64,000 nt of DNA from Mustelus asterias (Eukaryota): NCBI RefSeq assembly GCF_964213995.1, contig NC_135809.1, positions 109,058,001 through 109,122,000 on the forward strand. Direction: 5' to 3'. Below are positions 12,552-40,112 of the stretch, in pieces. The notes beneath the pieces were generated by a model. It did not search any database. It was not told the DNA's origin and saw only the letters and a program-made list of their open reading frames with translations. Positions within the stretch are counted from its first letter, which is position 1, and each line of letters begins with the position of its first letter. The position numbers were made by a program, and so were the translations under genes.

Positions 12552-12644
12552 ACACAATGCGAACATCTTTAGATGAACCAAATGATACTGTGCATAAAGC
12601 TCCAACTGATCAGATTCAAGGACCAAAGGATCAGGAAAATAAAG
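12552..12644 (+). CDS. Repeat exon 1: DTMRTSLDEPNDTVHKAPTDQIQGPKDQENK
   Basis: catgtAG| 93 nt AAAG|gtgggt, phase 1-1, open. Confidence 0.7.
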
Positions 12645-14565: not shown

Positions 14566-14658
14566 ACCCAAAGGGAACATCTTCAGATCAAGCAGGGGAT
14601 ACTGTGCATCAAGCTCCATGGGATCAGAATCAAGGAGCAAAGGATCAGGGAAATAAAG
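14566..14658 (+). CDS. Repeat exon 2: DPKGTSSDQAGDTVHQAPWDQNQGAKDQGNK
   Basis: catatAG| 93 nt AAAG|gtgggt, open. Confidence 0.7.
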
Positions 14659-16565
14659 GTGGGTTCAATGAAGAAATATCAAAGATGCAAAGATTTTATT
14701 CATTCATGGTCTGAGGAACAATGTATAACGTTGAGTTCAATTTATATTTCTATTGATGTGTTAAGACAGGTTCTGGTTACATTTGTAGTTTTTTCTGAGT
14801 GTGGTCCTGCGGAGTCTGGAGGCATTCCTTGTATTTTCATGAAGGTAGAGGTAGTTTAAATGGTCTATATTTGTATTGTTAAGTATTAGAAGTGAGGCTT
14901 AATTTAGTCTTGCTGTGTAAGGAAGCAAGGAGCTGCAGTTAGATTCATGTCATGCAAAGTATTTTGCATCTGGGGTGCAGATAATTTCGGAAGAAAAAAT
15001 AAGTGGAAACAAGAATCCCTGTTATTCAGTCCCAGCGTTCCTGGGCACACAAAGACACAGGGAATGGCAGAATTGCTGTCCTCTGTCTATATGACAGGGA
15101 GTGAAGACAGAAGCTCTGCACTCTCAGATTGTAAATTGAGCAACTTTCCTGAGGAGCAGTTTGTGGACAACTCCTGCGTTGAAGTCATAGTTGCGACAGT
15201 CCATATGGTGTAGGTGTATCCGAAGAGCCTTTGGGGATGTTGTTAGAGGTTTTCAGCCCTGTGACAATGCAGAAATGGGCGCATCTTTCCAAGACAGGTA
15301 TTTGTCAAATGTAAAGGGGAGTTGGAAAGCAAATTACTGCGGGTCTGGAATCTGAACCAAAAACAGAAATGCGAGAAATCTCCGCAGGTCTGACAGCATC
15401 TGTGGAGAGAGAACAGAGCTAATGTTTTGAGTCTCGATGATCTTTTGTCAGAGCTGAAGGCAATAGAAAGTAGGATGAGATTTAGACTGTTGTGGTGAGG
15501 GGTGTGAGGGACCCGTCGGGGCTGGATAGAGAGCCAGCGGTTGGTGAAGACGGAGAAATTGACAAAGATATTATCGACAGAAAAATGTAGGGAATGTAAA
15601 TGGTGGTGATCATTGCTAAGAAGGATGCTGAGAGCTAAGAAGGGTACGTTGGCCATGTTGGCATTTCGGTGCCCCTGCTGCCCTTATTGTTGTGGATCTC
15701 AGTAGTTGCGATCTTGAAGCTGCCCTTGAAGAAGTTGTATACGACCAAAAAACCAAAGTATTATTCATCGACGGTGTGGAATGTAGGAAGGTATTCCAGT
15801 TAGCTCTAGCCTAAACATGTCAACAGGTCACTAGAATTTCTTCACGTTTGTGACCCTTAGCAAAGTAATGGGTGCAATAGATGGTGGACGCAATAAATGT
15901 GATGAAATGCATTACGTACAATTGAAAGAGGGGGTAAGAATTGTTTCTCACTGAGGCCTTGATCTGACAACTGTGGCTTCATGTATTCTTAGACACATTA
16001 GGTAAGTCGTTCAGAAATGTTGTCTGCCAATCAGAAGGAAATGGGTTGATGTACTAGTCCAGGATATTGAGTAAATATCTTGACTGAAGCCCGGTACATT
16101 TCTGTGATGGAATGCTGCAGTTAGAGTCATCCTCATATTTGCATTGGATAAAGCTGCTTTTTTCAAATACAGAACCTGATTTCCATTTCCAATTAGAATG
16201 CCCTTTGATGTGTCTTGACATTGAAGTACCTTTCGTTCACAATGTTCATGATCCAGGAAAATATTTTGCTCATGAATTCCAGGGCAAATTGGATAACAAA
16301 GTTGTGGAATTTTACAGATAATATTTGAAACAAATTGTCTGAGCTCTATTGCGGGATAGCAGTTAATACTGACGATGAGGAAATAAAAAATGCATGATGC
16401 TTGGGATCCTTAATGTAGCACTTACCTAAGGAATCGGAATATCTAACCATAGATAAAGAGGCAAATTCATGTGCAATATTTGCATTTGAGCCAATGTACT
16501 TCACTGTACTTTCTACTCCATAACACAATGAGTTTACATTATCATGGATTTTGGTGTTCATATAG

Positions 16566-16658
16566 ACCCAAGGGGAACATCTTCAGATCAACCAGGCGAT
16601 ACTGTGCATAAAGCTCCACCGGATCAGAATCAAGGAGGAAAGGATGAGGAAAATAAAG
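16566..16658 (+). CDS. Repeat exon 3: DPRGTSSDQPGDTVHKAPPDQNQGGKDEENK
   Basis: AG/GT flanked, 93 nt, open. Confidence 0.7.
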
Positions 16659-18564
16659 GTGGGTTCAATGAAGAAATATCAAAGATGCAAAGATTTTATT
16701 CATTCATGGTCTGAGGAACAATGTATAACGTTGAGTTCAATTTCTATTTGTATTGATGTGTTAAGACAGGTTCTGGTTACATTTGTAGTTGTTTCTGAGT
16801 GTAGTCCTGCGGAGTCTGGAGGCATTCCTTGTATTTTCATGAAGGTAGAGGTCGTTTAAATGGTCTATATTTGTATTGTTAAGTATTAGAAGTGAGGCTT
16901 AATTTAGTCTTGCTGTGTAAGGAAGTAAGGAGCTGCAGTTAGATTCATGTCATGCAAAGTATTTTGCATCTCGGGTGCAGATAATTTAGGAAGAAAAAAT
17001 AAGTGGAAACAAGAATCCCTGTTATTCAGTCCCAGCGTTCCTGGGCACACAACGACACAGGGAATGGCAGAATTGCTGTCCTCTGTCTATATGACAGGGA
17101 GTGAAGACAGAAGCTCTGCACTCTCAGATTGTAAATTGAGCAACTTTCCTGAGGAGCAGTTTGTGGACAACTCCTGCGTTGAAGTCATAGTTGCGACAGT
17201 CCATATGGTGTAGGTGTATCCGAAGAGCCTTTGGGGATGTTGTTAGAGGTTTTCAGCCCTGTGACAATGTAGAAATGGGCGCATCTTTCCAAGACAGGTA
17301 TTTGTCAAATGTAAAGAGGAGTTTGAAAGCAAATTACTGCGGGTCTGGAATCTGAACCAAAAACAGAAATGCGAGAAATCTCCGCAGGTCTGACAGCATC
17401 TGTGGAGAGAGAACAGAGCTAATGTTTTGAGTCTCGATGATCTTTTGTCAGAGCTGAAGGCAATAGAAAGTAGGATGAGATTTAGACTGTTGTGGTGAGG
17501 GGTGTGGGGGACCCGTCGGGGCTGGATAGAGAGCCAGAGGTTGGTGAAGACGGAGAAATTGACAAAGATATTATCGACAGAAAAATGTAGGGAATGTAAA
17601 TGGTGGTGATCATTGCTAAGAAGAATGCTGAGAGCTCAGAAGGGGACGTTGGCCATGTTGGCATTTCGGTGCCCCTGCTGCCCTTATTGTTGTGGATCTC
17701 AGTAGTTGCGATCTTGAAGCTGCCCTTGAAGAAGTTGTATACGACCAAAAAACCAAAGTATTATTCATCGATGGTATGGAATGTAGGAAGGTATTCCAGT
17801 TAGCTATCGCATAAACGTGTCAACAGGTCCTAGAATTTCTTCACGTTTGTGACCCTTAGCAAAGTAATGGGTGCAATAGATGGTGGACGCAATAAATGTG
17901 ATGAAATGCATTACGTACAATTGAAAGAGGGGGTAAGAATTGTTTCTCACTGAGGCCTTGATCTGACAACTGTGGCTTCATGTATTCTTAGCCACATTAG
18001 CCAAGTCGTTCAGAAATGTTGTCTGCCAATCAGAAGGAAATGGGTTGATGTACTAGTCCAGGATATTGAGTAAATATCTTGACTGAAGCCCGGTACATTT
18101 CTGTGATGAAATGCTGCAGTTAGAGTCATCCTCATATTTGCATTGGATAAAGCTGCTTTTTTCAAATAAAGAAACTGATTTCCATTTCCAATTAGAATGC
18201 CCTTTGATGTGTCTTGACATTGAAGTACCATTCGTTCACAATGTTCATGATCCAGGAAAATATTTTGCTCATGAATTCCAGGGCAAATTGGATAACAAAG
18301 TTGTGGAATTTTACAGATAATATTTGAAACAAATTGTCTGAGCTCTATTGCGGGATAGCAGTTAATACTGACTATGAGGAAATAAAAAATGCATGATGCT
18401 TGGGATCCTTAATATAGCACTTACCTAAGGAATCGGAATATCTAACCATAGATAAAGAGGCAAATTCATGTGCAATATTTGCATTTGAGCCAATGTACTT
18501 CACTGTACTTTCTACTCCATAACACAATGAGTTTACATTATCATGGATTTTGGTGTTCATATAG

Positions 18565-18657
18565 ACCCAAGGGGAACATCTTCAGATCAACCAGGCAATA
18601 CTGTGCATGAAGCTCCATCGGATCAGAATCAAGGAGCAAAGGATGAGGAAAATAAAG
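18565..18657 (+). CDS. Repeat exon 4 (type B): DPRGTSSDQPGNTVHEAPSDQNQGAKDEENK
   Basis: AG/GT flanked, 93 nt, open. Confidence 0.7.
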
Positions 18658-20563
18658 GTGGGTTCAATGAAGAAATATCAAAGATGCAAAGATTTTATTC
18701 ATTCATGGTCTGAGGAACAATGTATAACGTTGAGTTCAATTTCTATTTGTATTGATGTGTTAAGACAGGTTCTGGTTACATTTGTACTTTTTTCTGAGTA
18801 TGGTCCTGCGGAGTCTGGAGGCATTCCTTGTATTTTCATGAAGATAGAGGCAGTTTAAATGATCTATATTTGTATTGTTAAGTATTAGAAGTGAGGCTTA
18901 ATTTAGTCTTGCTGTGTAAGGAAGTAAGGAGCTGCAGTTAGATTCATGTCATGCAAAGTATTTTGCATCTCGGGTGCAGATAATTTAGGAAGAAAAAATA
19001 AGTGGAAACAAGAATCCCTGTTATTCAGTCCCAGCGTTCCTGGGCACACAAAGACACAGGGAATGGCAGAATTGCTGTCCTCTGTCTATATGACAGGGAG
19101 TGAAGACAGAAGCTCTGCACTCTCAGATTGTAAATTGAGCACCTTTGCTGAGGAGCAGTTTGTGGACAACTCCTGCGTTGAAGTCATAGTTGCGACAGTC
19201 CATATGGTGTAGGTGTATCCGAAGAGCCTTTGGGGATGTTGTTAGAGGTTTTCAGCCCTGTGACAATGTAGAAATGGGCGCATCTTTCCAAGACAGGTAT
19301 TTGTCAAATGTAAATGGGAGTTTGAAAGCAAATTACTGCGGGTCTGGAATCTGAACCAAAAACAGAAATGCGAGAAATCTCCGCAGGTCTGACAGCATCT
19401 GTGGAGAAAGAACAGAGCTAATGTTTTGAGTCTCGATGATCTTTTGTCAGAGCTGAAGGCAATAGAAAGTAGGATGAGATTTTGACTGTTGTGGTGAGGG
19501 GTGTGGGGGACCCGTCGGGGCTGGATAGAGAGCCAGAGGTTGGTGAAGACGGAGAAATTGACAAAGATATTATCGACAGAAAAATGTAGGGAATGTAAAT
19601 GGTGGTGATCATTGCTAAGAAGAATGCTGAGAGCTCAGAAGGGGACGTTGGCCATGTTGGCATTTCGGTGCCCCTGCTGCCCTTATTGTTGTGGATCTCA
19701 GTAGTTGCGATCTTGAAGCTGCCCTTGAAGAAGTTGTATACGACCAAAAAACCAAAGTATTATTCATCGATGGTATGGAATGTAGGAAGGTATTCCAGTT
19801 AGCTATCGCATAAACGTGTCAACAGGTCCTAGAATTTCTTCACGTTTGTGACCCTTAGCAAAGTAATGGGTGCAATAGATGGTGGACGCAATAAATGTGA
19901 TGAAATGCATTACGTACAATTGAAAGAGGGGGTAAGAATTGTTTCTCACTGAGGCCTTGATCTGACAACTGTGGCTTCATGTATTCTTAGCCACATTAGC
20001 CAAGTCGTTCAGAAATGTTGTCTGCCAATCAGAAGGAAATGGGTTGATGTACTAGTCCAGGATATTGAGTAAATATCTTGACTGAAGCCCGGTACATTTC
20101 TGTGATGAAATGCTGCAGTTAGAGTCATCCTCATATTTGCATTGGATAAAGCTGCTTTTTTCAAATAAAGAAACTGATTTCCATTTCCAATTAGAATGCC
20201 CTTTGATGTGTCTTGACATTGAAGTACCATTCGTTCACAATGTTCATGATCCAGGAAAATATTTTGCTCATGAATTCCAGGGCAAATTGGATAACAAAGT
20301 TGTGGAATTTTACAGATAATATTTGAAACAAATTGTCTGAGCTCTATTGCGGGATAGCAGTTAATACTGACTATGAGGAAATAAAAAATGCATGATGCTT
20401 GGGATCCTTAATATAGCACTTACCTAAGGAATCGGAATATCTAACCATAGATAAAGAGGCAAATTCATGTGCAATATTTGCATTTGAGCCAATGTACTTC
20501 ACTGTACTTTCTACTCCATAACACAATGAGTTTACATTATCATGGATTTTGGTGTTCATATAG

Positions 20564-20656
20564 ACCCAAGGGGAACATCTTCAGATCAACCAGGCAATAC
20601 TGTGCATGAAGCTCCATCGGATCAGAATCAAGGAGCAAAGGATGAGGAAAATAAAG
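20564..20656 (+). CDS. Repeat exon 5 (type B, identical to exon 4)
   Basis: AG/GT flanked, 93 nt, open. Confidence 0.7.
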
Positions 20657-22555
20657 GTGGGTTCAATGAAGAAATATCAAAGATGCAAAGATTTTATTCA
20701 TTCATGGTCTGAGGAACAATGTATAACGTTGAGTTCAATTTCTATTTGTATTGATGTGTTAAGACAGGTTCTGGTTACATTTGTACTTTTTTCTGAGTAT
20801 GGTCCTGCGGAGTCTGGAGGCATTCCTTGTATTTTCATGAAGATAGAGGCAGTTTAAATGATCTATATTTGTATTGTTAAGTATTAGAAGTGAGGCTTAA
20901 TTTAGTCTTGCTGTGTAAGGAAGTAAGGAGCTGCAGTTAGATTCATGTCATGCAAAGTATTTTGCATCTCGGGTGCAGATAATTTAGGAAGAAAAAATAA
21001 GTGGAAACAAGAATCCCTGTTATTCAGTCCCAGCGTTCCTGGGCACACAAAGACACAGGGAATGGCAGAATTGCTGTCCTCTGTCTATATGACAGGGAGT
21101 GAAGACAGAAGCTCTGCACTCTCAGATTGTAAATTGAGCACCTTTGCTGAGGAGCAGTTTGTGGACAACTCCTGCGTTGAAGTCATAGTTGCGACAGTCC
21201 ATATGGTGTAGGTGTATCCGAAGAGCCTTTGGGGATGTTGTTAGAGGTTTTCAGCCCTGTGACAATGTAGAAATGGGCGCATCTTTCCAAGACAGGTATT
21301 TGTCAAATGTAAATGGGAGTTTGAAAGCAAATTACTGCGGGTCTGGAATCTGAACCAAAAACAGAAATGCGAGAAATCTCCGCAGGTCTGACAGCATCTG
21401 TGGAGAGAGAACAGAGCTAATGTTTTGAGTCTCGATGATCTTTTTTCAGAGCTGAAGGCAATAGAAAGTAGGATGAGATTTAGACTGTTGTGGTGAGGGG
21501 GACCCGTCGGGGCTGGATAGAGAGCCAGAGGTTGGTGAAGACGGAGAAATTGAAAAAGATATTATCGACAGAAAAATGTAGGGAATGTAAATGGTGGTGA
21601 TCATTGCTAAGAAGAATGCTGAGAGCTAAGAAGGGGACGTTGGCCATGTTGGCGTTTCGGTGCCCCTGCTGCCCTTATTGTTGTGGATCTCAGTAGTTGC
21701 GATCTTGAAGCTGCCCTTGAAGAAGTTGTATACGACCAAAAAACCAAAGTATTATTCATCGATGGTATGGAATGTAGGAAGGTATTCCAGTTAGCTATCG
21801 CATAAACGTGTCAACAGGTCCTAGAATTTCTTCACGTTTGTGACCCTTAGCAAAGTAATGGGTGCAATAGATGGTGGACGCAATAAATGTGATGAAATGC
21901 ATTACGTACAATTGAAAGAGGGGGTAAGAATTGTTTCTCACTGAGGCCTTGATCTGACAACTGTGGCTTCATGTATTCTTAGACACATTAGGTAAGTCGT
22001 TCAGAAATGTTGTCTGCCAATCAGAAGGAAATGGGTTGATGTACTAGTCCAGGATATTGAGTAAATATCTTGACTGAAGCCCGGTACATTTCTGTGATGG
22101 AATGCTGCAGTTAGAGTCATCCTCATATTTGCATTGGATAAAGCTGCTTTTTTCAAATAAAGAAACTGATCTCCATTTCCAATTAGAATGCCCTTTGATG
22201 TGTCTTGACATTGAAGTACCTTTCGTTCACAATGTTCATGATCCAGGAAAATATTTTGCTCATGAATTCCAGGGCAAATTGGATAACAAAGTTGTGGAAT
22301 TTTACAGATAATATTTGAAACAAATTGTCTGAGCTCTATTGCGGGATAGCAGTTAATACTGACTATGAGGAAATAAAAAATGCATGATGCTTGGGATCCT
22401 TAATATAGCACTTACCTAAGGAATCGGAATATCTAACCATAGATAAAGAGGCAAATTCATGTGCAATATTTGCATTTGAGCCAATGTACTTCACTGTACT
22501 TTCTACTCCATAACACAATGAGTTTACATTATCATGGATTTTGGTGTTCATATAG

Positions 22556-22648
22556 ACCCAAGGGAAACATCTTCAGATCAACCAGGCAATACTGTGCATG
22601 AAGCTCCATCGGATCAGAATCAAGGAGCAAAGGATGAGGAAAATAAAG
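22556..22648 (+). CDS. Repeat exon 6 (type B, G4E)
   Basis: AG/GT flanked, 93 nt, open. Confidence 0.7.
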
Positions 22649-24552
22649 GTGGGTTCAATGAAGAAATATCAAAGATGCAAAGATTTTATTCATTCATGGT
22701 CTGAGGAACAATGTATAACGTTGAGTTCAATTTCTATTTGTATTGATGTGTTGTGACTGGTTCTGGTTACATTTGTACTTTTTTCTGAGTATGGTCCTGC
22801 GGAGTCTGGAGGCATTCCTTGTATTTTCATGAAGATAGAGGTAGTTTAAATGATCTATATTTGTATTGTTAAGTATTAAAAGTGAGGCTTAATTTAGTCT
22901 TGCTGTGTAAGGAAGTAAGGAGCTGCAGTTAGATTCATGTCATGCAAAGTATTTTGCATCTCGGGTGCAGATAATTTAGGAAGAAAACATAAGTGGAAAC
23001 AAGAATCCCTGTTATTCAGTCCCAGCGTTCCTGGGCACACAAAGACACAGGGAATGGCAGAATTGCTGTCCTCTGTCTATATGACAGGGAGTGAAGACAG
23101 AAGCTCTGCACTCTCAGATTGTAAATTGAGCAACTTTCCTGAGGAGCAGTTTGTGGACAACTCCTGCGTTGAAGTCATAGTTGCGACAGTCCATATGGTG
23201 TAGGTGTATCCGAAGAGCCTTTGGGGATGTTGTTAGAGGTTTTCAGCCCTGTGACAATGCAGAAATGGGCGCATCTTTCCAAGACAGGTATTTGTCAAAT
23301 GTAAAGGGGAGTTTGAAAGCAAATTACTGCGGGTCTGGAATCTGAACCAAAAACAGAAATGCGAGAAATCTCCGCAGGTCTGACAGCATCTGTGGAGAGA
23401 GAACAGAGCTAATGTTTTGAGTCTCGATGATCTTTTGTCAGAGCTGAAGGCAATAGAAAGTAGGATGAGATTTAGACTGTTGTGGTGAGGGGTGTGGGGG
23501 ACCCGTCGGGGCTGGATAGAGAGCCAGAGGTTGGTGAAGACGGAGAATTTGACAAAGATATTATCGACAGAAAAATGTAGGGAATGTAAATGGTGGTGAT
23601 CATTGCTAAGAAGAATGCTGAGAGCTAAGAAGGGGACGTTGGCCATGTTGGCGTTTCGGTGCCCCTGCTGCCCTTATTGTTGTGGATCTCAGTAGTTGCG
23701 ATCTTGAAGCTGCCCTTGAAGAAGTTGTATACGACCAAAAAACCAAAGTATTATTCATCGATGGTATGGAATGTAGGAAGGTATTCCAGTTAGCTATCGC
23801 ATAAACGTGTCAACAGGTCCTAGAATTTCTTCACGTTTGTGACCCTTAGCAAAGTAATGGGTGCAATAGATGGTGGACGCAATAAATGTGATGAAATGCA
23901 TTACGTACAATTGAAAGAGGGGGTAAGAATTGTTTCTCACTGAGGCCTTGATCTGACAACTGTGGCTTCATGTATTCTTAGACACATTAGCCAAGTCGTT
24001 CAGAAATGTTGTCTGCCAATCAGAAGGAAATGGGTTGATGTACTAGTCCAGGATATTGAGTAAATATCTTGACTGAAGCCCGGTACATTTCTGTGATGGA
24101 ATGCTGCAGTTAGTCATCCTCATATTTGCATTGGATAAAGCTGCTTTTTTCAAATAAAGAAACTGATTTCCATTTCCAATTAGAATGCCCTTTGATGTGT
24201 CTTGACATTGAAGTACCTTTCGTTCACAATGTTCATGATCCAGGAAAATATTTTGCTCATGAATTCCAGGGCAAATTGGATAACAAAGTTGTGGAATTTT
24301 ACAGATAATATTTGAAACAAATTGTCTGAGCTCTATTGCGGGATAGCAGTTAATACTGACTATGAGGAAATAAAAAATGCAAGATGCTTGGGATCCTTAA
24401 TATAGCACTTACCTAAGGAATCGGAATATCTAACCATAGATAAAGAGGCAAATTCATGTGCAATATTTGCATTTGAGCCAATGTACTTCACTGTACTTTC
24501 TACTCCATAACACAATGAGTTTACATTATCATGGATTTTGGTGTTCATATAG

Positions 24553-24645
24553 ACCCAAGGGGAACATCTTCAGATCAAGCAGGCGATACTGTGCATCAAG
24601 CTCCATGGGATCAGAATCAAGGAGCAAAGGATCAGGGAAATAAAG
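24553..24645 (+). CDS. Repeat exon 7 (type A): DPRGTSSDQAGDTVHQAPWDQNQGAKDQGNK
   Basis: AG/GT flanked, 93 nt, open. Confidence 0.7.
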
Positions 24646-26551
24646 GTGGGTTCAATGAAGAAATATCAAAGATGCAAAGATTTTATTCATTCATGGTCTG
24701 AGGAACAATGTATAACGTTGAGTTCAATTTCTATTTGTATTGATGTGTTAAGACAGGTTCTGGTTACATTTGTACTTTTTTCTGAGTGTAGTCCTGCGGA
24801 GTCTGGAGGCATTCCTTGTATTTTCATGAAGATAGAGGTAGTTTAAATGATCTATATTTGTATTGTTAAGTATTAGAAGTGAGGCTTAATTTAGTCTTGC
24901 TGTGTAAGGAAGCAAGGAGCTGCAGTTAGATTCATGTCATGCAAAGTATTTTGCATCTGGGGTGCAGATAATTTCGGAAGAAAAAATAAGTGGAAACAAG
25001 AATCCCTGTTATTCAGTCCCAGCGTTCCTGGGCACACAAAGACACAGGGAATGGCAGAATTGCTGTCCTCTGTCTATATGACAGGGAGTGAAGACAGAAG
25101 CTCTGCACTCTCAGATTGTAAATTGAGCAACTTTGCTGAGGAGCAGTTTGTGGACAACTCCTGCGTTGAAGTCATAGTTGCGACAGTCCATATGGTGTAG
25201 GTGTATCCGAAGAGCCTTTGGGGATGTTGTTAGAGGTTTTCAGCCCTGTGACAATGTAGAAATGGGCGCATCTTTCCAAGACAGGTATTTGTCAAATGTA
25301 AAGGGGAGTTTGAAAGCAAATTACTGCGGGTCTGGAATCTGAACCAAAAACAGAAATGCGAGAAATCTCCGCAGGTCTGACAGCATCTGTGGAGAGAGAA
25401 CAGAGCTAATGTTTTGAGTCTCGATGATCTTTTGTCAGAGCTGAAGGCAATAGAAAGTAGGATGAGATTTAGACTGTTGTGGTGAGGGGTGTGGGGGACC
25501 CGTCGGGGCTGGATAGAGAGCCAGAGGTTGGTGAAGACGGAGAAATTGACAAAGATATTATCGACAGAAAAATGTAGGGAATGTAAATGGTGGTGATCAT
25601 TGCTAAGAAGAATGCTGAGAGCTAAGAAGGGGACGTTGGCCATGTTGGCGTTTCGGTGCCCCTGCTGCCCTTATTGTTGTGGATCTCAGTAGTTGCGATC
25701 TTGAAGCTGCCCTTGAAGAAGTTGTATACGACCAAAAAACCAAAGTATTATTCATCGATGGTATGGAATGTAGGAAGGTATTCCAGTTAGCTATCGCATA
25801 AACGTGTCAACAGGTCCTAGAATTTCTTCACGTTTGTGACCCTTAGCAAAGTAATGGGTGCAATAGATGGTGGACGCAATAAATGTGATGAAATGCATTA
25901 CGTACAATTGAAAGAGGGGGTAAGAATTGTTTCTCACTGAGGCATTGATCTGACAACTGTGGCTTCATGTATTCTTAGACACATTAGCCAAGTCATTCAG
26001 AAATGTTGTCTGCCAATCAGAAGGAAATGGGTTGATGTACTAGTCCAGGATATTGAGTAAATATCTTGACTGAAGCCCGGTACATTTCTGTGATGGAATG
26101 CTGCAGTTAGAGTCATCCTCATATTTGCATTGGACAAAGCTGCTTTTTTCAAATACAGAACCTGATTTCCATTTCCAATTAGAATGCCCTTTGATGTGTC
26201 TTGACATTGAAGTACCTTTCGTTCACAATGTTCATGATCCAGGAAAATATTTTGCTCATGAATTCCAGGGCAAATTGGATAACAAAGTTGTGGAATTTTA
26301 CAGATAATATTTGAAACAAATTGTCTGAGCTATATTGCGGGATAGCAGTTAATACTGACGATGAGGAAATAAAAAATGCATGATGCTTGGGATCCTTAAT
26401 GTAGCACTTACCTAAGGAATCGGAATATCTAACCATAGATAAAGAGGCAAATTCATGTGCAATATTTGCATTTGAGCCAATGTACTTCACTGTACTTTCT
26501 ACTCCATAACACAATGAGTTTACATTATCATGGATTTTGGTGTTCATATAG

Positions 26552-26644
26552 ACCCAAGGGGAACATCTTCAGATCAAGCAGGCGATACTGTGCATCAAGC
26601 TCCATGGGATCAGAATCAAGGAGCAAAGGATCAGGGAAATAAAG
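26552..26644 (+). CDS. Repeat exon 8 (type A)
   Basis: AG/GT flanked, 93 nt, open. Confidence 0.7.
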
Positions 26645-28543
26645 GTGGGTTCAATGAAGAAATATCAAAGATGCAAAGATTTTATTCATTCATGGTCTGA
26701 GGAACAATGTATAACGTTGAGTTCAATTTCTATTTGTATTGATGTGTTAAGACAGGTTCTGGTTACATTTGTAGTTGTTTCTGAGTGTAGTCCTGCGGAG
26801 TCTGGAGGCATTCCTTGTATTTTCATGAAGGTAGAGGTCGTTTAAATGGTCTATATTTGTATTGTTAAGTATTAGAAGTGAGGCTTAATTTAGTCTTGCT
26901 GTGTAAGGAAGCAAGGAGCTGCAGTTAGATTCATGTCATGCAAAGTATTTTGCATCTGGGGTGCAGATAATTTAGGAAGAAAAAATAAGTGGAAACAAGA
27001 ATCCCTGTTATTCAGTCCCAGCGTTCCTGGGCACACAACGACACAGGGAATGGCAGAATTGCTGTCCTCTGTCTACATGACAGGGAGTGAAGACAGAAGC
27101 TCTGCACTCTCAGATTGTAAATTGAGCAACTTTGCTGAGGAGCAGTTTGTGGACAACTCCTGCGTTGAAGTCATAGTTGCGACAGTCCATATGGTGTAGG
27201 TGTATCCGCAGAGCCTTTGGGGATGTTGTTAGAGGTTTTCAGCCCTGTGACAATGTAGAAATGGGCGCATCTTTCCAAGACAGGTATTTGTCAAATGTAA
27301 ATGGGAGTATGAAAGCAAATTACTGCGGGTCTGGAATCTGAACCAAAAACAGAAATGCGAGAAATCTCCGCAGGTCTGACAGCATCTGTGGAGAGAGAAC
27401 AGAGCTAATGTTTTGAGTCTCGATGATCTTTTTTCAGAGCTGAAGGCAATAGAAAGTAGGATGAGATTTAGACTGTTGTGGTGAGGGGGACCCGTCGGGG
27501 CTGGATAGAGAGCCAGAGGTTGGTGAAGACGGAGAAATTGACAAAGATATTATCGACAGAAAAATGTAGGGAATGTAAATGGTGGTGATCATTGCTAAGA
27601 AGAATGCTGAGAGCTAAGAAGGGGACGTTGGCCATGTTGGCATTTCGGTGCCCCTGCTGCCCTTATTGTTGTGGATCTCAGTAGTTGCGATCTTGAAGCT
27701 GCCCTTGAAGAAGTTGTATACGACCAAAAAACCAAAGTATTATTCATCGATGGTATGGAATGTAGGAAGGTATTCCAGTTAGCTATCGCATAAACGTGTC
27801 AACAGGTCCTAGAATTTCTTCACGTTTGTGACCCTTAGCAAAGTAATGGGTGCAATAGATGGTGGACGCAATAAATGTGATGAAATGCATTACGTACAAT
27901 TGAAAGAGGGGGTAAGAATTGTTTCTCACTGAGGCCTTGATCTGACAACTGTGGCTTCATGTATTCTTAGACACATTAGCCAAGTCGTTCAGAAATGTTG
28001 TCTGCCAATCAGAAGGAAATGGGTTGATGTACTAGTCCAGGATATTGAGTAAATATCTTGACTGAAGCCCGGAACATTTCTGGGATGAAATGCTGCAGTT
28101 AGAGTCATCCTCATATTTGCATTGGATAAAGCTGCTTTTTTCAAATAAAGAAACTGATTTCCATTTCCAATTAGAATGCCCTTTGATGTGTCTTGACATT
28201 GAAGTACCTTTCGTTCACAATGTTCATGATCCAGGAAAATATTTTGCTCATGAATTCCAGGGCAAATTGGATAACAAAGTTGTGGAATTTTACAGATAAT
28301 ATTTGAAACAAATTGTCTGAGCTCTATTGCGGGATAGCAGTTAATACTGACTATGAGGAAATAAAAAATGCATGATGCTTGGGATCCTTAATATAGCACT
28401 TACCTAAGGAATCGGAATATCTAACCATAGATAAAGAGGCAAATTCATGTGCAATATTTGCATTTGAGCCAATGTACTTCACTGTACTTTCTACTCCATA
28501 ACACAATGAGTTTACATTATCATGGATTTTGGTGTTCATATAG

Positions 28544-28636
28544 ACCCAAGGGGAACATCTTCAGATCAAGCAGGCGATACTGTGCATCAAGCTCCATGGG
28601 ATCAGAATCAAGGAGCAAAGGATCAGGGAAATAAAG
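28544..28636 (+). CDS. Repeat exon 9 (type A)
   Basis: AG/GT flanked, 93 nt, open. Confidence 0.7.
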
Positions 28637-30542
28637 GTGGGTTCAATGAAGAAATATCAAAGATGCAAAGATTTTATTCATTCTAGGTCTGAGGAACAAT
28701 GTATAACGTTGAGTTCAATTTCTATTTGTATTGATGTGTTAAGACAGGTTCTGGTTACATTTGTACTTTTTTCTGAGTGTAGTCCTGCGGAGTCTGGAGG
28801 CATTCCTTGTATTTTCATGAAGATAGAGGTAGTTTAAATGATCTATATTTGTATTGTTAAGTATTAGAAGTGAGGCTTAATTTAGTCTTGCTGTGTAAGG
28901 AAGCAAGGAGCTGCAGTTAGATTCATGTCATGCAAAGTATTTTGCATCTGGGGTGCAGATAATTTCGGAAGAAAAAATAAGTGGAAACAAGAATCCCTGT
29001 TATTCAGTCCCAGCGTTCCTGGGCACACAAAGACACAGGGAATGGCAGAATTGCTGTCCTCTGTCTATATGACAGGGAGTGAAGACAGAAGCTCTGCACT
29101 CTCAGATTGTAAATTGAGCAACTTTGCTGAGGAGCAGTTTGTGGACAACTCCTGCGTTGAAGTCATAGTTGCGACAGTCCATATGGTGTAGGTGTATCCG
29201 AAGAGCCTTTGGGGATGTTGTTAGAGGTTTTCAGCCCTGTGACAATGTAGAAATGGGCGCATCTTTCCAAGACAGGTATTTGTCAAATGTAAAGGGGAGT
29301 TTGAAAGCAAATTACTGCGGGTCTGGAATCTGAACCAAAAACAGAAATGCGAGAAATCTCCGCAGGTCTGACAGCATCTGTGGAGAGAGAACAGAGCTAA
29401 TGTTTTGAGTCTCGATGATCTTTTGTCAGAGCTGAAGGCAATAGAAAGTAGGATGAGATTTAGACTGTTGTGGTGAGGGGTGTGGGGGACCCGTCGGGGC
29501 TGGATAGAGAGCCAGAGGTTGGTGAAGACGGAGAAATTGACAAAGATATTATCGACAGAAAAATGTAGGGAATGTAAATGGTGGTGATCATTGCTAAGAA
29601 GAATGCTGAGAGCTAAGAAGGGTACGTTGGCCATGTTGGCGTTTCGGTGCCCCTGCTGCCCTTATTGTTGTGGATCTCAGTAGTTGCGATCTTGAAGCTG
29701 CCCTTGAAGAAGTTGTATACGACCAAAAAACCAAAGTATTATTCATCGATGGTATGGAATGTAGGAAGGTATTCCAGTTAGCTATCGCATAAACGTGTCA
29801 ACAGGTCCTAGAATTTCTTCACGTTTGTGACCCTTAGCAAAGTAATGGGTGCAATAGATGGTGGACGCAATAAATGTGATGAAATGCATTACGTACAATT
29901 GAAAGAGGGGGTAAGAATTGTTTCTCACTGAGGCATTGATCTGACAACTGTGGCTTCATGTATTCTTAGACACATTAGCCAAGTCATTCAGAAATGTTGT
30001 CTGCCAATCAGAAGGAAATGGGTTGATGTACTAGTCCAGGATATTGAGTAAATATCTTGACTGAAGCCCGGTACATTTCTGTGATGGAATGCTGCAGTTA
30101 GAGTCATCCTCATATTTGCATTGGATAAAGCTGCTTTTTTCAAATACAGAACCTGATTTCCATTTCCAATTAGAATGCCCTTTGATGTGTCTTGACATTG
30201 AAGTACCTTTCGTTCACAATGTTCATGATCCAGGAAAATATTTTGCTCATGAATTCCAGGGCAAATTGGATAACAAAGTTGTGGAATTTTACAGATAATA
30301 TTTGAAACAAATTGTCTGAGCTATATTGCGGGATAGCAGTTAATACTGACGATGAGGAAATAAAAAATGCATGATGCTTGGGATCCTTAATGTAGCACTT
30401 ACCTAAGGAATCGGAATATCTAACCATAGATAAAGAGGCAAATTCATGTGCAATATTTGCATTTGAGCCAATGTACTTCACTGTACTTTCTACTCCATAA
30501 CACAATGAGTTTACATTATCATGGATTTTGGTGTTCATATAG

Positions 30543-30635
30543 ACCCAAGGGGAACATCTTCAGATCAAGCAGGCGATACTGTGCATCAAGCTCCATGGGA
30601 TCAGAATCAAGGAGCAAAGGATCAGGGAAATAAAG
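30543..30635 (+). CDS. Repeat exon 10 (type A)
   Basis: AG/GT flanked, 93 nt, open. Confidence 0.7.
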
Positions 30636-32534
30636 GTGGGTTCAATGAAGAAATATCAAAGATGCAAAGATTTTATTCATTCATGGTCTGAGGAACAATG
30701 TATAACGTTGAGTTCAATTTCTATTTGTATTGATGTGTTAAGACAGGTTCTGGTTACATTTGTAGTTGTTTCTGAGTGTAGTCCTGCGGAGTCTGGAGGC
30801 ATTCCTTGTATTTTCATGAAGGTAGAGGTCGTTTAAATGGTCTATATTTGTATTGTTAAGTATTAGAAGTGAGGCTTAATTTAGTCTTGCTGTGTAAGGA
30901 AGCAAGGAGCTGCAGTTAGATTCATGTCATGCAAAGTATTTTGCATCTGGGGTGCAGATAATTTAGGAAGAAAAAATAAGTGGAAACAAGAATCCCTGTT
31001 ATTCAGTCCCAGCGTTCCTGGGCACACAACGACACAGGGAATGGCAGAATTGCTGTCCTCTGTCTACATGACAGGGAGTGAAGACAGAAGCTCTGCACTC
31101 TCAGATTGTAAATTGAGCAACTTTGCTGAGGAGCAGTTTGTGGACAACTCCTGCGTTGAAGTCATAGTTGCGACAGTCCATATGGTGTAGGTGTATCCGC
31201 AGAGCCTTTGGGGATGTTGTTAGAGGTTTTCAGCCCTGTGACAATGTAGAAATGGGCGCATCTTTCCAAGACAGGTATTTGTCAAATGTAAATGGGAGTA
31301 TGAAAGCAAATTACTGCGGGTCTGGAATCTGAACCAAAAACAGAAATGCGAGAAATCTCCGCAGGTCTGACAGCATCTGTGGAGAGAGAACAGAGCTAAT
31401 GTTTTGAGTCTCGATGATCTTTTTTCAGAGCTGAAGGCAATAGAAAGTAGGATGAGATTTAGACTGTTGTGGTGAGGGGGACCCGTCGGGGCTGGATAGA
31501 GAGCCAGAGGTTGGTGAAGACGGAGAAATTGACAAAGATATTATCGACAGAAAAATGTAGGGAATGTAAATGGTGGTGATCATTGCTAAGAAGAATGCTG
31601 AGAGCTAAGAAGGGGACGTTGGCCATGTTGGCATTTCGGTGCCCCTGCTGCCCTTATTGTTGTGGATCTCAGTAGTTGCGATCTTGAAGCTGCCCTTGAA
31701 GAAGTTGTATACGACCAAAAAACCAAAGTATTATTCATCGATGGTATGGAATGTAGGAAGGTATTCCAGTTAGCTATCGCATAAACGTGTCAACAGGTCC
31801 TAGAATTTCTTCACGTTTGTGACCCTTAGCAAAGTAATGGGTGCAATAGATGGTGGACGCAATAAATGTGATGAAATGCATTACGTACAATTGAAAGAGG
31901 GGGTAAGAATTGTTTCTCACTGAGGCCTTGATCTGACAACTGTGGCTTCATGTATTCTTAGACACATTAGCCAAGTCGTTCAGAAATGTTGTCTGCCAAT
32001 CAGAAGGAAATGGGTTGATGTACTAGTCCAGGATATTGAGTAAATATCTTGACTGAAGCCCGGAACATTTCTGGGATGAAATGCTGCAGTTAGAGTCATC
32101 CTCATATTTGCATTGGATAAAGCTGCTTTTTTCAAATAAAGAAACTGATTTCCATTTCCAATTAGAATGCCCTTTGATGTGTCTTGACATTGAAGTACCT
32201 TTCGTTCACAATGTTCATGATCCAGGAAAATATTTTGCTCATGAATTCCAGGGCAAATTGGATAACAAAGTTGTGGAATTTTACAGATAATATTTGAAAC
32301 AAATTGTCTGAGCTCTATTGCGGGATAGCAGTTAATACTGACTATGAGGAAATAAAAAATGCATGATGCTTGGGATCCTTAATATAGCACTTACCTAAGG
32401 AATCGGAATATCTAACCATAGATAAAGAGGCAAATTCATGTGCAATATTTGCATTTGAGCCAATGTACTTCACTGTACTTTCTACTCCATAACACAATGA
32501 GTTTACATTATCATGGATTTTGGTGTTCATATAG

Positions 32535-32627
32535 ACCCAAGGCGAACATCTTCAGATCAACCAGGCAATACTGTGCATGAAGCTCCATCGGATCAGAATC
32601 AAGGAGCAAAGGATGAGGAAAATAAAG
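32535..32627 (+). CDS. Repeat exon 11 (type B, G4R)
   Basis: AG/GT flanked, 93 nt, open. Confidence 0.7.
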
Positions 32628-34546
32628 GTGGGTTCAATGAAGAAATATCAAAGATGCAAAGATTTTATTCATTCATGGTCTGAGGAACAATGTATAACGT
32701 TGAGTTCAATTTCTATTTGTATTGATGTGTTAAGACAGGTTCTGGTTACATTTGTACTTTTTTCTGAGTATGGTCCTGCGGAGTCTGGAGGCATTCCTTG
32801 TATTTTCATGAAGATAGAGGTAGTTTAAATGATCTCTATTTGTATTGTTAAGTATTAGAAGTGAGGCTTAATTTAGTCTTGCTGTGTAAGGAAGTAAGGA
32901 GCTGCAGTTAGATTCATGTCATGCAAAGTATTTTGCATCTCGGGTGCAGATAATTTAGGAAGAAAAAATAAGTGGAAACAAGAATCCCTGTTATTCAGTC
33001 CCAGCGTTCCTGGGCACACAAAGACACAGGGAATGGCAGAATTGCTGTCCTCTGTCTATATGACAGGGAGTGAAGACAGAAGCTCTGCACTCTCAGATTG
33101 TAAATTGAGCAACTTTGCTGAGGAGCAGTTTGTGGACAACTCCTGCGTTGAAGTCATAGTTGCGACAGTCCATATGGTGTAGGTGTATCCGAAGAGCCTT
33201 TGGGGATGTTGTTAGAGGTTTTCAGCCCTGTGACAATGTAGAAATGGGCGCATCTTTCCAAGACAGGTATTTGTCAAATGTAAAGGGGAGTTTGAAAGCA
33301 AATTACTGCGGGTCTGGAATCTGAACCAAAAACAGAAATGCGAGAAATCTCCGCAGGTCTGACAGCATCTGTGGAGAGAGAACAGAGCTAATGTTTTGAG
33401 TCTCGATGATCTTTTGTCAGAGCTGAAGGCAATAGAAAGTAGGATGAGATTTAGACTGTTGTGGTGAGGGGTGTGGGGGACCCGTCGGGGCTGGATAGAG
33501 AGCCAGAGGTTGGTGAAGACGGAGAAATTGACAAAGATATTATCGACAGAAAAATGTAGGGAATGTAAATGGTGGTGATCATTGCTAAGAAGAATGCTGA
33601 GAGCTAAGAAGGGGACGTTGGCCATGTTGGCGTTTCGGTGCCCCTGCTGCCCTTATTGTTGTGGATCTCAGTAGTTGCGATCTTGAAGCTGCCCTTGAAG
33701 AAGTTGTATACGACCAAAAAACCAAAGTATTATTCATCGATGGTATGGAATGTAGGAAGGTATTCCAGTTAGCTATCGCATAAACGTGTCAACAGGTCCT
33801 AGAATTTCTTCACGTTTGTGACCCTTAGCAAAGTAATGGGTGCAATAGATGGTGGACGCAATAAATGTGATGAAATGCATTACGTACAATTGAAAGAGGG
33901 GGTAAGAATTGTTTCTCACTGAGGCATTGATCTGACAACTGTGGCTTCATGTATTCTTAGACACATTAGCTTAGTCATTCAGAAATGTTGTTTGCCAATC
34001 AGAAGGAAATGGGTTGATGTACTAGTCCAGGATATTGAGTAAATATCTTGACTGAAGCCCGGTACATTTCTGTGATGGAATGATGCAGTTAGAGTCATCC
34101 TCATATTTGCATTGGATAAAGCTGCTTTTTTCAAATACAGAACCTGATTTCCATTTCCAATTAGAATGCCCTTTGATGTGTCTTGACATTGAAGTACCTT
34201 TCGTTCACAATGTTCATGATCCAGGAAAATATTTTGCTCATGAATTCCAGGGCAAATTGGATAACAAAGTTGTGGAATTTTACAGATAATATTTGAAACA
34301 AATTGTCTGAGCTATATTGCGGGATAGCAATTAATACTGACGATGAGGAAATAAAAAATGCATGATGCTTGGGATCCTTAATGTAGCACTTACCTAAGGA
34401 ATCGGAATATCTAACCATAGATAAAGAAGCAAGGAGGTCAACTAAATTCATGTGCAATATTTGCATTTGAGCCAATGTACTTCACTGTACTTTCTACTCC
34501 ATAACACAATGAGTTTACATTATCATGGATTTTGGTGTTCATATAG

Positions 34547-34639
34547 ACCCAAGGGGAACATCTTCAGATCAAGCAGGCGATACTGTGCATCAAGCTCCAT
34601 GGGATCAGAATCAAGGAGCAAAGGATCAGGGAAATAAAG
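34547..34639 (+). CDS. Repeat exon 12 (type A)
   Basis: AG/GT flanked, 93 nt, open. Confidence 0.7.
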
Positions 34640-36558
34640 GTGGGTTCAATGAAGAAATATCAAAGATGCAAAGATTTTATTCATTCATGGTCTGAGGAAC
34701 AATGTATAACGTTGAGTTCAATTTCTATTTGTATTGATGTGTTAAGACAGGTTCTGGTTACATTTGTAGTTGTTTCTGAGTGTAGTCCTGCGGAGTCTGG
34801 AGGCATTCCTTGTATTTTCATGAAGGTAGAGGTCGTTTAAATGGTCTATATTTGTATTGTTAAGTATTAGAAGTGAGGCTTAATTTAGTCTTGCTGTGTA
34901 AGGAAGCAAGGAGCTGCAGTTAGATTCATGTCATGCAAAGTATTTTGCATCTGGGGTGCAGATAATTTAGGAAGAAAAAATAAGTGGAAACAAGAATCCC
35001 TGTTATTCAGTCCCAGCGTTCCTGGGCACACAACGACACAGGGAATGGCAGAATTGCTGTCCTCTGTCTACATGACAGGGAGTGAAGACAGAAGCTCTGC
35101 ACTCTCAGATTGTAAATTGAGCAACTTTGCTGAGGAGCAGTTTGTGGACAACTCCTGCGTTGAAGTCATAGTTGCGACAGTCCATATGGTGTAGGTGTAT
35201 CCGAAGAGCCTTTGGGGATGTTGTTAGAGGTTTTCAGCCCTGTGACAATGTAGAAATGGGCGCATCTTTCCAAGACAGGTATTTGTCAAATGTAAAGGGG
35301 AGTTTGAAAGCAAATTACTGCGGGTCTGGAATCTGAACCAAAAACAGAAATGCGAGAAATCTCCGCAGGTCTGACAGCATCTGTGGAGAGAGAACAGAGC
35401 TAATGTTTTGAGTCTCGATGATCTTTTGTCAGAGCTGAAGGCAATAGAAAGTAGGATGAGATTTAGACTGTTGTGGTGAGGGGTGTGGGGGACCCGTCGG
35501 GGCTGGATAGAGAGCCAGAGGTTGGTGAAGACGGAGAAATTGACAAAGATATTATCGACAGAAAAATGTAGGGAATGTAAATGGTGGTGATCATTGCTAA
35601 GAAGAATGCTGAGAGCTAAGAAGGGTACGTTGGCCATGTTGGCGTTTCGGTGCCCCTGCTGCCCTTATTGTTGTGGATCTCAGTAGTTGCGATCTTGAAG
35701 CTGCCCTTGAAGAAGTTGTATACGACCAAAAAACCAAAGTATTATTCATCGATGGTATGGAATGTAGGAAGGTATTCCAGTTAGCTATCGCATAAACGTG
35801 TCAACAGGTCCTAGAATTTCTTCACGTTTGTGACCCTTAGCAAAGTAATGGGTGCAATAGATGGTGGACGCAATAAATGTGATGAAATGCATTACGTACA
35901 ATTGAAAGAGGGGGTAAGAATTGTTTCTCACTGAGGCATTGATCTGACAACTGTGGCTTCATGTATTCTTAGACACATTAGCTAAGTCATTCAGAAATGT
36001 TGTCTGCCAATCAGAAGGAAATGGGTTGATGTACTAGTCCAGGATATTGAGTAAATATCTTGACTGAAGCCCGGTACATTTCTGTGATGGAATGATGCAG
36101 TTAGAGTAATCCTCATATTTGCATTGGATAAAGCTGCTTTTTTCAAATACAGAACCTGATTTCCATTTCCAATTAGAATGCCCTTTGATGTGTCTTGACA
36201 TTGAAGTACCTTTCGTTCACAATGTTCATGATCCAGGAAAATATTTTGCTCATGAATTCCAGGGCAAATTGGATAACAAAGTTGTGGAATTTTACAGATA
36301 ATATTTGAAACAAATTGTCTGAGCTATATTGCGGGATAGCAGTTAATACTGACGATGAGGAAATAAAAAATGCATGATGCTTGGGATCCTTAATGTAGCA
36401 CTTACCTAAGGAATCGGAATATCTAACCATAGATAAAGAAGCAAGGAGGTCAACTAAATTCATGTGCAATATTTGCATTTGAGCCAATGTACTTCACTGT
36501 ACTTTCTACTCCATAACACAATGAGTTTACATTATCATGGATTTTGGTGTTCATATAG

Positions 36559-36651
36559 ACCCAAGGGGAACATCTTCAGATCAAGCAGGCGATACTGTGC
36601 ATCAAGCTCCATGGGATCAGAATCAAGGAGCAAAGGATCAGGGAAATAAAG
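36559..36651 (+). CDS. Repeat exon 13 (type A)
   Basis: AG/GT flanked, 93 nt, open. Confidence 0.7.
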
Positions 36652-38561: not shown

Positions 38562-38654
38562 ACCCAATGGGAACATCTTCAAATGAATGAAACAATACTT
38601 TGCATAAAGCTTCACCAGATCAGAATCAAAGACCAAAGGAACAGGAAACTAAAG
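38562..38654 (+). CDS. Repeat exon 14 with in-frame stop (DPMGTSSNE*): terminal coding exon or pseudo-exon
   Basis: AG/GT intact, 93 nt, TGA at 38588-38590. Confidence 0.5.
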
Positions 38655-39208
38655 GTGGGTTCAATGAAGAAATATCAAAGATCCCAAGATTTTATTCGTT
38701 CATGGTCTGAGGAACAATGTATAACATTGAGTTCAATTTATATTTGTATTGATGTGTTAAGGCAGGTTCTAATTACATTTGTAGTTTTTTCTGAGTATGG
38801 TCCTGCGGTGCCTGGAGGCATTATTTATATTTTCATGAAGATAGAGTTAGTTTAAATGATCTATATTTGTATTGTTAAGTCTTAGAAATGAGGCATAGTT
38901 GTAAGTGGGTTGAATTTAGTTCTGCTATGCAAGGAAGTAAGGAGTTCCAGTTAGATTCATGTAAGGCAAAGTATTTTGCATCTGGGGTACAAATAATTTA
39001 TGAACAAAAAATAAGTGTAAACAAAAATCCCTGTTATATGGTGACAGCATCCCTGGGCACACAAAGGCACAGGGAAAGGCAGAATTGCTGTTCTCTCTGT
39101 CTATATGACAGAGAGTGAAGACAGAAACTCTGTACTCTCTGATTGTAACCGGAACAACCTTGCTGAGGAGCAGATTGTGGGCAACTCGTGCGTTGAAGTA
39201 ATAGTTGC

Positions 39209-40020: not shown

Positions 40021-40112
40021 TGGGGTCGGCGGGGAGGTGGTGGCGGGGGCGGGTGGGGGGGGGGAGCGTGGTGCACGGGGGGGGGGGGGGGGGGGGGGTG
40101 GCCGGTGGCGGT
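40021..40112 (+). repeat. Expanded G-rich/poly-G tract
   Basis: Long G runs replacing the short ggtgaggggtgtgggg segment of other units. Confidence 0.85.

What the first reader, a model, noticed from the sequence alone, without database searches (positions are those of the whole stretch)
14566..36651. Variation among young copies appears concentrated in the exon and is almost all amino-acid changing (types A and B)
Seen: among copies 2-13 I count 12 variable sites in 93 nt, 11 non-synonymous (R3K, G4E/R, A10P, D12N, Q16K/E, W19S/P, A25G, Q28E, G29E) and 1 synonymous. Type A (AGD..Q.PW..QG) and type B (PGN..E.PS..EE) differ at 6 of 93 nt, all non-synonymous, and B is more acidic. Introns look only about 1-2% different by eye. 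Order of copies 2-13: A',mixed,B,B,B',A,A,A,A,B'',A,A. Inference: diversifying selection or maintained repeat types within a homogenising array. Caveat: 11:1 alone is not significant against a neutral expectation of about 3:1.
Basis: partly seen in the sequence, partly recalled or inferred. Interest (0 to 1): 0.7.

Follow-up and report, generated by a model that had tools for sequence, protein, structure and literature searches.

The report
Shark immune-ligand exon array diversifying
A shark gene resembling the killer-cell ligand B7H6 carries 14 tandem copies of a short, likely intracellular exon whose protein-changing positions vary about two to five times more than the surrounding introns, most likely because selection favours new variants while copying between repeats evens out the rest.

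Summary
Observation confirmed: copies 2-13 have 12 variable exon sites (11 non-synonymous), types A and B differ at 6 non-synonymous sites, and the order is as stated; introns differ by 1.6%. The 93-nt exon lies in the predicted cytoplasmic tail of a shark B7H6-like V-C1-TM gene. Contigs from two other organisms join exon end to next exon start, which supports splicing and the frame. In copies 2-13 alone the excess is marginal: 2.2-fold, p 0.01-0.03, at the edge of the intron-window range, and 12:1 is not significant. Edge copies strengthen it: the core stem (5.6x) and copy 1 (4.5x) show the excess, while the path to copy 14, which has an in-frame stop, does not (1.06x). Against selection: the young excess is entirely G<->C transversions, and derived alleles recreate nearby 6-7-mers (p 0.003-0.007), so templated mutation remains a rival. 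'Maintained types' is not shown: A is mostly derived and B dominates three other DNA runs. Verdict: likely episodic diversifying selection in a converting exon array (0.55), a known pattern in a new gene. The scan noted a similar exon-over-intron pattern in another gene and genome (e1-8621033, unchecked).

The parts
535..963 (+). Third Ig-like exon of the predicted cytoplasmic tail of the B7H6-like gene (142 full codons, phase 1-1; the canonical Ig cysteines are missing)
   Evidence: AlphaFold pLDDT 86.5, all-beta Ig fold; 92-94% identical to the two copies upstream in P0009
4082..4171 (+). Older acidic linker exon, phase 1-1, 90 nt
   Evidence: paralogue of an exon used in P0009
4715..4810 (+). 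Older acidic linker exon, phase 1-1, 96 nt
11792..39212 (+). Tandem array of about 2.0-kb exon+intron units, 14 exons
   Evidence: a head-to-tail unit junction is also seen in contigs of runs X10, X11, X12
12552..12644 (+). Copy 1 (edge), frame open; exon 16-17% from the core while its introns are 3.5% from it
14566..14658 (+). Copy 2, type A'
16566..16658 (+). Copy 3, mixed type (keeps alleles shared with the edge copies)
18565..22648 (+). Copies 4-6, type B, B, B' (exons 18565-18657, 20564-20656, 22556-22648)
24553..30635 (+). Copies 7-10, type A (exons 24553-24645, 26552-26644, 28544-28636, 30543-30635); 7+8 and 9+10 look like a duplicated dimer
   Evidence: introns of c7 and c9 differ at 7 sites, c8 and c10 at 1
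32535..32627 (+). Copy 11, type B''
34547..36651 (+). Copies 12-13, type A (exons 34547-34639, 36559-36651)
38562..38654 (+). Copy 14 (edge), in-frame TGA at codon 10 with intact splice sites: likely a dead exon, or the end of the frame
40104..41139 (+). Older unit-like intron copy (82-84%) whose match stops just before the exon position; exon absent
45366..45517 (+). Diverged linker-like exon, phase 1 start, open to a TAG at 45515-45517; candidate last coding exon (inferred)

Best explanation
The array is a run of 31-codon exons in the predicted cytoplasmic tail of a shark B7H6-like gene, homogenised by likely unequal crossover and gene conversion, while likely episodic selection for new amino acids (or against overwriting the exon) keeps the exon two to five times more variable than its introns. 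Shown: array, counts, gene context, exon-only excess. Inferred: splicing in this species (junctions are seen only in two other organisms), the recombination mechanism, and selection. Types A and B are most likely a stage in turnover, with A the mostly derived form, not proven long-term balanced types.
For: Excess at several depths: copies 2-13 12/93 vs 111/1883 (p 0.011); copies 3-12 10/93 vs 58/1897 (p 0.0009); c1 vs c14 16/93 vs 128/1264 (p 0.03). Branch split: core stem 5.6x (p 0.005, all five changes at codon positions 1-2), copy 1 4.5x (p 0.01), path to stop-bearing copy 14 1.06x (95% range 0.46-2.1; a 2.5x intrinsic rate has p 0.004). Positions 1+2 have 28 changes vs 10.75 expected, position 3 has 5 vs 4.8 (deficit p 0.034). 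Copy 1's peak starts and stops at the splice sites (16/93 vs 17/310 upstream and 10/310 downstream). Fixed A/B differences: 6/93 in the exon vs 4/330 in the linked intron (p 0.01). The six pure A exons are identical although their introns vary at 62 sites (p 0.047; 0.19 without c13), which a hypermutable exon does not predict. Frame and splicing: phase 1-1 matches the upstream exons of P0009; contigs of X13 and X5 run from 24645 straight into the start of another exon copy, and X5's continuation has a stop in the other open frame. Ectodomain's best solved match is human B7-H6 (E 2e-28; next family 1e-11).
Against: dN over dS is never clearly significant (12:1 p 0.11-0.19; 21:3 p 0.10-0.17; 29:4 p 0.05-0.10). 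In copies 2-13 the whole excess is G<->C: 7 vs 0.37 expected, other changes 6 vs 5.2; selection on amino acids does not predict this. Derived alleles recreate nearby 6-7-mers more than matched nulls (p 0.003-0.007). No charge enrichment; clustering by codon is weak (p 0.05 by variance, 0.53 by unchanged codons). The copy-14 control is confounded: if conversion rewrote copy 1's introns, the 101 intron changes include stem changes. Older linker exons of the same gene show dN below dS in 3 of 5 pairs, no difference in 1, and 5N:1S in 1. Expression in this species is not shown, the RefSeq model P0009 ends upstream of the window, and no database protein holds the repeat (a weak search). The finding was picked after the fact from a large scan.
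Confidence: 0.55

Rival explanations
1. A local mutational process in a weakly constrained exon: the purine-rich exon has internal 21-nt sub-repeats, and short templated copying between them (or another G<->C-prone process) raises change only inside the exon. G and C sit mostly at codon positions 1-2, so the changes look non-synonymous without selection.
For: G<->C is 7 of 13 exon changes vs 7 of 111 intron changes (p 6e-5); 7/44 vs 7/759 per G/C site. The G<->C rate per G/C base is similar at position 3 (1 of 7) and positions 1-2 (6 of 35). Lag 21 is the best internal period, and two A-defining changes (sites 27, 45) each copy the motif 21 nt away. Templating test p 0.003-0.007, with no such signal in introns. 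The tail looks weakly constrained: a paralogue's Ig-exon pair has 9 non-synonymous and 0 synonymous codons at the flank rate.
Against: No excess on the path to copy 14. No change among six A exons (at a 3x rate p 0.0001, or 0.007 without c13). Non-G<->C changes are also in excess once the edge copies are added (15 vs 6.9, p 0.005). Matches are only 6-7 nt, and the best offsets show no clear preference for multiples of three. The test was devised after seeing the data.
Confidence: 0.25
2. Chance within a recombination mosaic: one deep local genealogy happens to cover the exon, and the scan picked it.
For: Copies 2-13 sit at the edge of the intron-window range; simulated p 0.01-0.03; four-gamete violations within about 200 nt on both sides show a mosaic.
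Against: The excess repeats on the core stem and on copy 1 and persists inside the linked A/B tract. By hand, X13's exon pieces differ from the window by about 16-20% and its one intron-like contig by about 6% (orthology not shown). Chance does not explain the G<->C skew.
Confidence: 0.12
3. A and B are long-lived functional types held together by balancing or subfunctional selection.
For: Two discrete types with few intermediates (1 of 12); identical A exons on two intron backgrounds; run X13 also holds two different exon forms.
Against: A is derived at 4 of 6 sites (27, 45, 55, 85) against the edge copies. All six B alleles make up the dominant contig in X10, X11 and X12, and in X11 that contig is as deep as its flanks (34.7 vs 27-34), so A may be rare elsewhere (contigs drop rare variants, so absence is not shown). 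No A-like form is seen in X13 or X5.
Confidence: 0.08

Closest known systems
Peak of divergence under gene conversion (human red/green opsin exon 5; Teshima-Innan signature), as reviewed in PMC3924837 (passages read)
   Same: Introns homogenised, a sharp divergence peak confined to an exon, read as selection opposing conversion.
   Different: Here it lies among 14 tandem exons inside one gene, not between two genes; no functional residue is known; the types are not shown to persist across species.
Shark B7H6 (NCR3LG1) family; nurse shark protein P0036, named B7H6 in UniRef
   Same: Signal-V-C1-TM layout with Ig-like domains after the membrane segment; 34% identity over 457 columns, including the first tail domain.
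   Different: This paralogue repeats only the first, cysteine-less tail domain and adds low-complexity linker exons, one expanded 14-fold. P0022, further down the cluster, looks more like P0036 in layout (by inspection; no tree built).
Genes with homogenised exon-intron repeats: Argiope MaSp2 and flagelliform spidroins (PMC9779670, passages read); tenascin-X (reference title only)
   Same: Repeated exon+intron units, introns about 98% alike, edge units diverged, higher-order dimers.
   Different: Those are secreted structural proteins, and the paper reads homogenisation as favoured; here the repeat is a predicted cytoplasmic linker of an immune ligand with excess amino-acid change.
Shark UrIg2 repeated C domains (PMC12227049, passages read)
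   Same: A shark Ig-superfamily gene with near-identical duplicated domains, gene conversion and a plastic structure.
   Different: A different gene family; its repeats are extracellular Ig domains.

Membership tests
B7H6 (NCR3LG1)-like genes | Ectodomain of one V and one C1 Ig domain, closest to B7-H6 | tested here: met
   Pfam V-set and C1-set in P0009; best PDB match human B7-H6 E 2e-28, next CD276 1e-11
B7H6 (NCR3LG1)-like genes | Type I membrane layout, with Ig-like domains after the membrane segment as in nurse shark B7H6 | tested here: met
   Leader, V, C1 and hydrophobic exon map 63-50 kb upstream (membrane segment judged by eye); alignment with P0036; Ig fold
B7H6 (NCR3LG1)-like genes | Binds NKp30 | not testable with these tools
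   Needs a binding assay
B7H6 (NCR3LG1)-like genes | Orthology to B7H6 rather than paralogy within the cluster | not tested
   No tree built; at least four V-C1-TM genes lie in the cluster
Coding exon array | Copies spliced head to tail in one frame | tested here: inconclusive
   Junction at the predicted donor in contigs of 2 of 4 runs laid (X13, kind not on record; X5, RNA by guess), both other organisms; not shown for this species; copy 14 has a stop
Selection peak under gene conversion | Flanks homogenised by exchange between copies | tested here: met
   Intron pi 0.016; four-gamete violations
Selection peak under gene conversion | Divergence peak confined to the coding segment | tested here: met
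Selection peak under gene conversion | dN significantly above dS | tested here: inconclusive
   p 0.05-0.19
Selection peak under gene conversion | The same types kept across individuals or species | tested here: inconclusive
   B dominant in 3 of 3 DNA-like runs; A not seen outside the window, but contigs drop rare variants
Selection peak under gene conversion | A functional difference between the variants | not testable with these tools
   Needs experiments

The most novel reading that the evidence does not exclude
The tail of a shark NK-ligand paralogue works as a renewable cassette of disordered peptides: new variants arise in one exon (possibly by short templated copying between its own sub-repeats), are favoured because they escape or bind an intracellular partner such as a viral antagonist of the ligand, and sweep through the array by unequal crossover, so that array make-up differs between individuals.
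Probability: 0.15. Interest if true: 0.75.

Novelty: new member of a known kind. Interest (0 to 1): 0.45.

Why it matters
If true, it is a case of positive selection on the inside of an NK-cell ligand rather than on its receptor-binding face, and it points to an unknown cytoplasmic partner for the unusual Ig-bearing tails of shark B7H6 genes. The array also offers a compact natural test (14 copies, one with a stop, two exon types) of selection against conversion. If the G<->C, templated-looking spectrum proves mutational, it is a warning that exon-versus-intron tests in low-complexity exons can mimic selection. Four searches and a broader one listed no paper on this array or on shark B7H6 tails, but two key papers on B7H6 evolution were not held, so absence from print is not shown.

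Tried and rejected
Other reading frame (phase 0, open in copies 2-14): rejected; it has a stop in copy 1 and in X5's next exon and does not fit the phase of the upstream exons. Run search with the Ig exon: no RNA holder listed; X1 and X7 gave no cover on the unit; neither is evidence. Protein search for the repeat peptide: nothing (weak). Pfam on the tail Ig domain: none. Rfam on one unit: none. Own-genome search: the array exon occurs only here, 14 full matches among 16, so no second haplotype could be compared. A conserved terminal exon like that of the paralogue P0013 was not found in the window. Charge selection: not enriched. Cluster-wide G<->C excess in exons: not seen (7/82 vs 32/528, p 0.46; non-independent pairs). 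A single TCA/TGA deamination signature: only 2 of 7 exon G<->C events. Assembly error as the source of the types: B alleles are confirmed in other runs; several singleton alleles match edge copies; A alleles stand in 7 copies but were not confirmed outside the assembly. Tree-based dN/dS was not run: recombination and 30 codons make it unreliable. No complex prediction was run: no partner is known.

Full report
1. Observation. Self-comparison shows a tandem array of about 2.0-kb units at 11792-39212. Each unit holds a 93-nt segment between AG and GT; there are 14 (coordinates), and the genome search finds the segment nowhere else. In copies 2-13, 12 of 93 sites vary, with 13 changes: 12 non-synonymous and 1 synonymous. 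Introns vary at 111 of 1883 gap-free sites; pi is 0.0159 against 0.0451 in the exon. Columns with gaps were left out of all counts.

2. Is it more than chance? For copies 2-13 alone, modestly. Fisher p is 0.011. Forward simulations of neutral conversion with four tract lengths give p 0.02-0.03 for the site ratio and about 0.01 for the pi ratio (replicates with 85-165 variable sites kept). Against sliding 93-nt intron windows the exon is at the edge: 25 of 1791 windows reach 12 sites, and the top pi is 0.0450. Dropping edge-influenced copies 2 and 13 raises the ratio to 3.5 (p 0.0009), yet 3 of 1805 windows still match the site count and 14 match pi. N:S of 12:1 has p 0.11-0.19.

3. What the gene is. 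An Ig-like exon at 535-963 led to RefSeq protein P0009 (named Mustelus asterias by the database, on a contig of the same length as the window's). Its leader, V, C1 and hydrophobic exons map 63-50 kb upstream, followed by two copies of the Ig-like exon and acidic linker exons, all phase 1-1. The ectodomain's best solved match is human B7-H6 (E 2e-28). A profile search found relatives across sharks, rays and chimaera, in coelacanth and in two frogs, among them a nurse shark protein named B7H6 with the same post-membrane domain. That domain folds as an Ig sandwich (pLDDT 86.5) and lacks the usual cysteines, which fits a cytoplasmic site (inference). So the array exons are predicted cytoplasmic linkers. 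The RefSeq model stops upstream of the window at a short intronic acceptor, so the array is not in that model.

4. Is it spliced? Not shown in this species. In run X13 (organism E, kind not on record) two deep contigs (257 and 669) cover only the exon, and one runs from the donor at 24645 directly into the start of another exon copy; X5 (organism A, RNA by guess) shows the same junction; X1 and X7 gave nothing. Copy 14 has an in-frame TGA at codon 10, so it must be skipped or end the protein; a diverged exon at 45366-45517 could be the last coding exon (inference).

5. Older copies. Copy 1's exon is 16-17% from the core while its introns are 3.5% from it; copy 14's is 18-20% against 10.8%; copy 1 vs copy 14 is 17% against 10%. 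Copy 1's peak falls off at the splice sites. Split by branch over 1246 intron sites: core stem 5 exon vs 12 intron changes (5.6x, p 0.005), copy 1 private 5 vs 15 (4.5x, p 0.01), copy 14 private 8 vs 101 (1.06x), three-way 1 vs 4. The stop-bearing path therefore shows no excess (range 0.46-2.1x). Caveat: if conversion overwrote copy 1's introns but spared its exon, the 101 is inflated; that reading still needs something exon-specific. Over all 14 copies, positions 1+2 carry 28 changes against 10.75 expected and position 3 carries 5 against 4.8; N:S is 29:4, p 0.05-0.10. Older linker exons of the same gene do not share the pattern: dN is below dS in 3 of 5 pairs, one pair is identical, one has 5N:1S with exon 6.7% vs flank 3.3%, p 0.09. 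The Ig-like exons are less diverged than their flanks in all 3 pairs and about equal in the paralogue's pair.

6. A result against simple selection. In copies 2-13, 7 of 13 exon changes are G<->C, against 7 of 111 in introns (p 6e-5); site 45 could be read otherwise, giving 6. Without them there is no excess (6 vs 5.2). The exon has a 21-nt internal period, and derived alleles recreate 6-7-mers found nearby more often than base-matched nulls (p 0.005-0.013; 0.003-0.007 with templates present in at least 4 copies); intron alleles do not. These tests were made after seeing the data. Templated mutation would explain the confinement to the exon and the spectrum, but not the quiet copy-14 path or the six identical A exons. 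Selection within a restricted amino-acid alphabet could give the same matches (inference).

7. Types A and B. Against the edge copies, A is derived at sites 27, 45, 55 and 85, B at 81 and 45; site 33 is ambiguous. The A/B split extends to about 330 nt downstream of the exon and is broken by recombination on both sides. In runs X10 and X12 (one sample) and X11 (a second sample) of organism D, the dominant contig carries all six B alleles, and in X11 it is as deep as its flanks. A majority allele there at 25135 is held by only 3 of 12 window copies. Array make-up thus likely differs between haplotypes, and A looks like a spreading derived form. Contigs drop rare variants, so this does not show that A is absent.

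8. Mechanism. Shown: a homogenised exon+intron array with an exon-limited excess of change at codon positions 1-2 on open-frame lineages. Inferred: unequal crossover and conversion copy whole units and parts; new exon variants are favoured, or exons resist overwriting, and sweep through the array. I put this at 0.55, local templated or G<->C-prone mutation under weak constraint at 0.25, chance at 0.12 and long-term balanced types at 0.08. The selective agent is unknown; human cytomegalovirus down-regulates B7-H6 (PMC5561058, search listing only), so a viral antagonist is a possible lead, not evidence.

9. Comparison and novelty. The pattern matches the peak-of-divergence signature described for opsins (PMC3924837, passages) and the homogenised exon-intron repeats of spider silk genes (PMC9779670, passages). 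PMC12227049 (passages) describes converted repeats in another shark Ig-family gene. PMC11599192, PMC10751288 and PMC6514059 were searched by term only and gave nothing on this gene. Two papers on B7H6 evolution were not held. It is a new member of a known kind, in an unusual place: the predicted inside of an NK-cell ligand. Interest 0.45.

Noticed in passing
window about 60155-60490: A V exon about 69% identical to that of P0009, with the first canonical Cys replaced by Ser; no C1 or membrane exon was found between it and the next gene. Likely an orphan pseudogene.
   Followed up: partly
L014-L040 (about 63 kb upstream to 260 kb from the window start): A cluster of at least four V-C1-TM B7H6-like genes with post-membrane Ig-like domains, plus one more such domain on the minus strand at G000:C9:109346453-109346854.
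   Followed up: partly
P0002, P0006, P0007, P0008: Paralogues or orthologues in other sharks carry up to about nine near-identical copies of the cysteine-less tail Ig domain; tail length is very plastic across species.
   Followed up: no
L024:3724-4146 vs L026:2551-2973: The paralogue's two tail Ig exons differ at 9 non-synonymous and 0 synonymous codons, at the same overall rate as the flanks.
   Followed up: partly
about 30 kb to 12.6 kb upstream of the window start vs 10.3 kb upstream to window 44669: An older segmental duplication (85-96%) made the third Ig exon and the array region; the upstream copy has unit-like introns without the array exon.
   Followed up: partly
L017 (35.3 kb and 32.4 kb upstream): Two 99-nt linker exons are identical in a duplicate whose flanks differ by 2.8%; the RefSeq model uses neither.
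   Followed up: no
window 4303 and 4938: The same short intronic acceptor-plus-stop motif that ends RefSeq model P0009 upstream recurs after both older linker exons; it could give truncated forms.
   Followed up: no
window about 7500-8500 and 39213-39650: By eye and from recall, a Harbinger-like transposase remnant before the array and a LINE-like fragment at its 3' end; not tested.
   Followed up: no
window 25360-25440 (and each unit): A very high-copy short repeat sits in each intron unit (depth in the millions).
   Followed up: no
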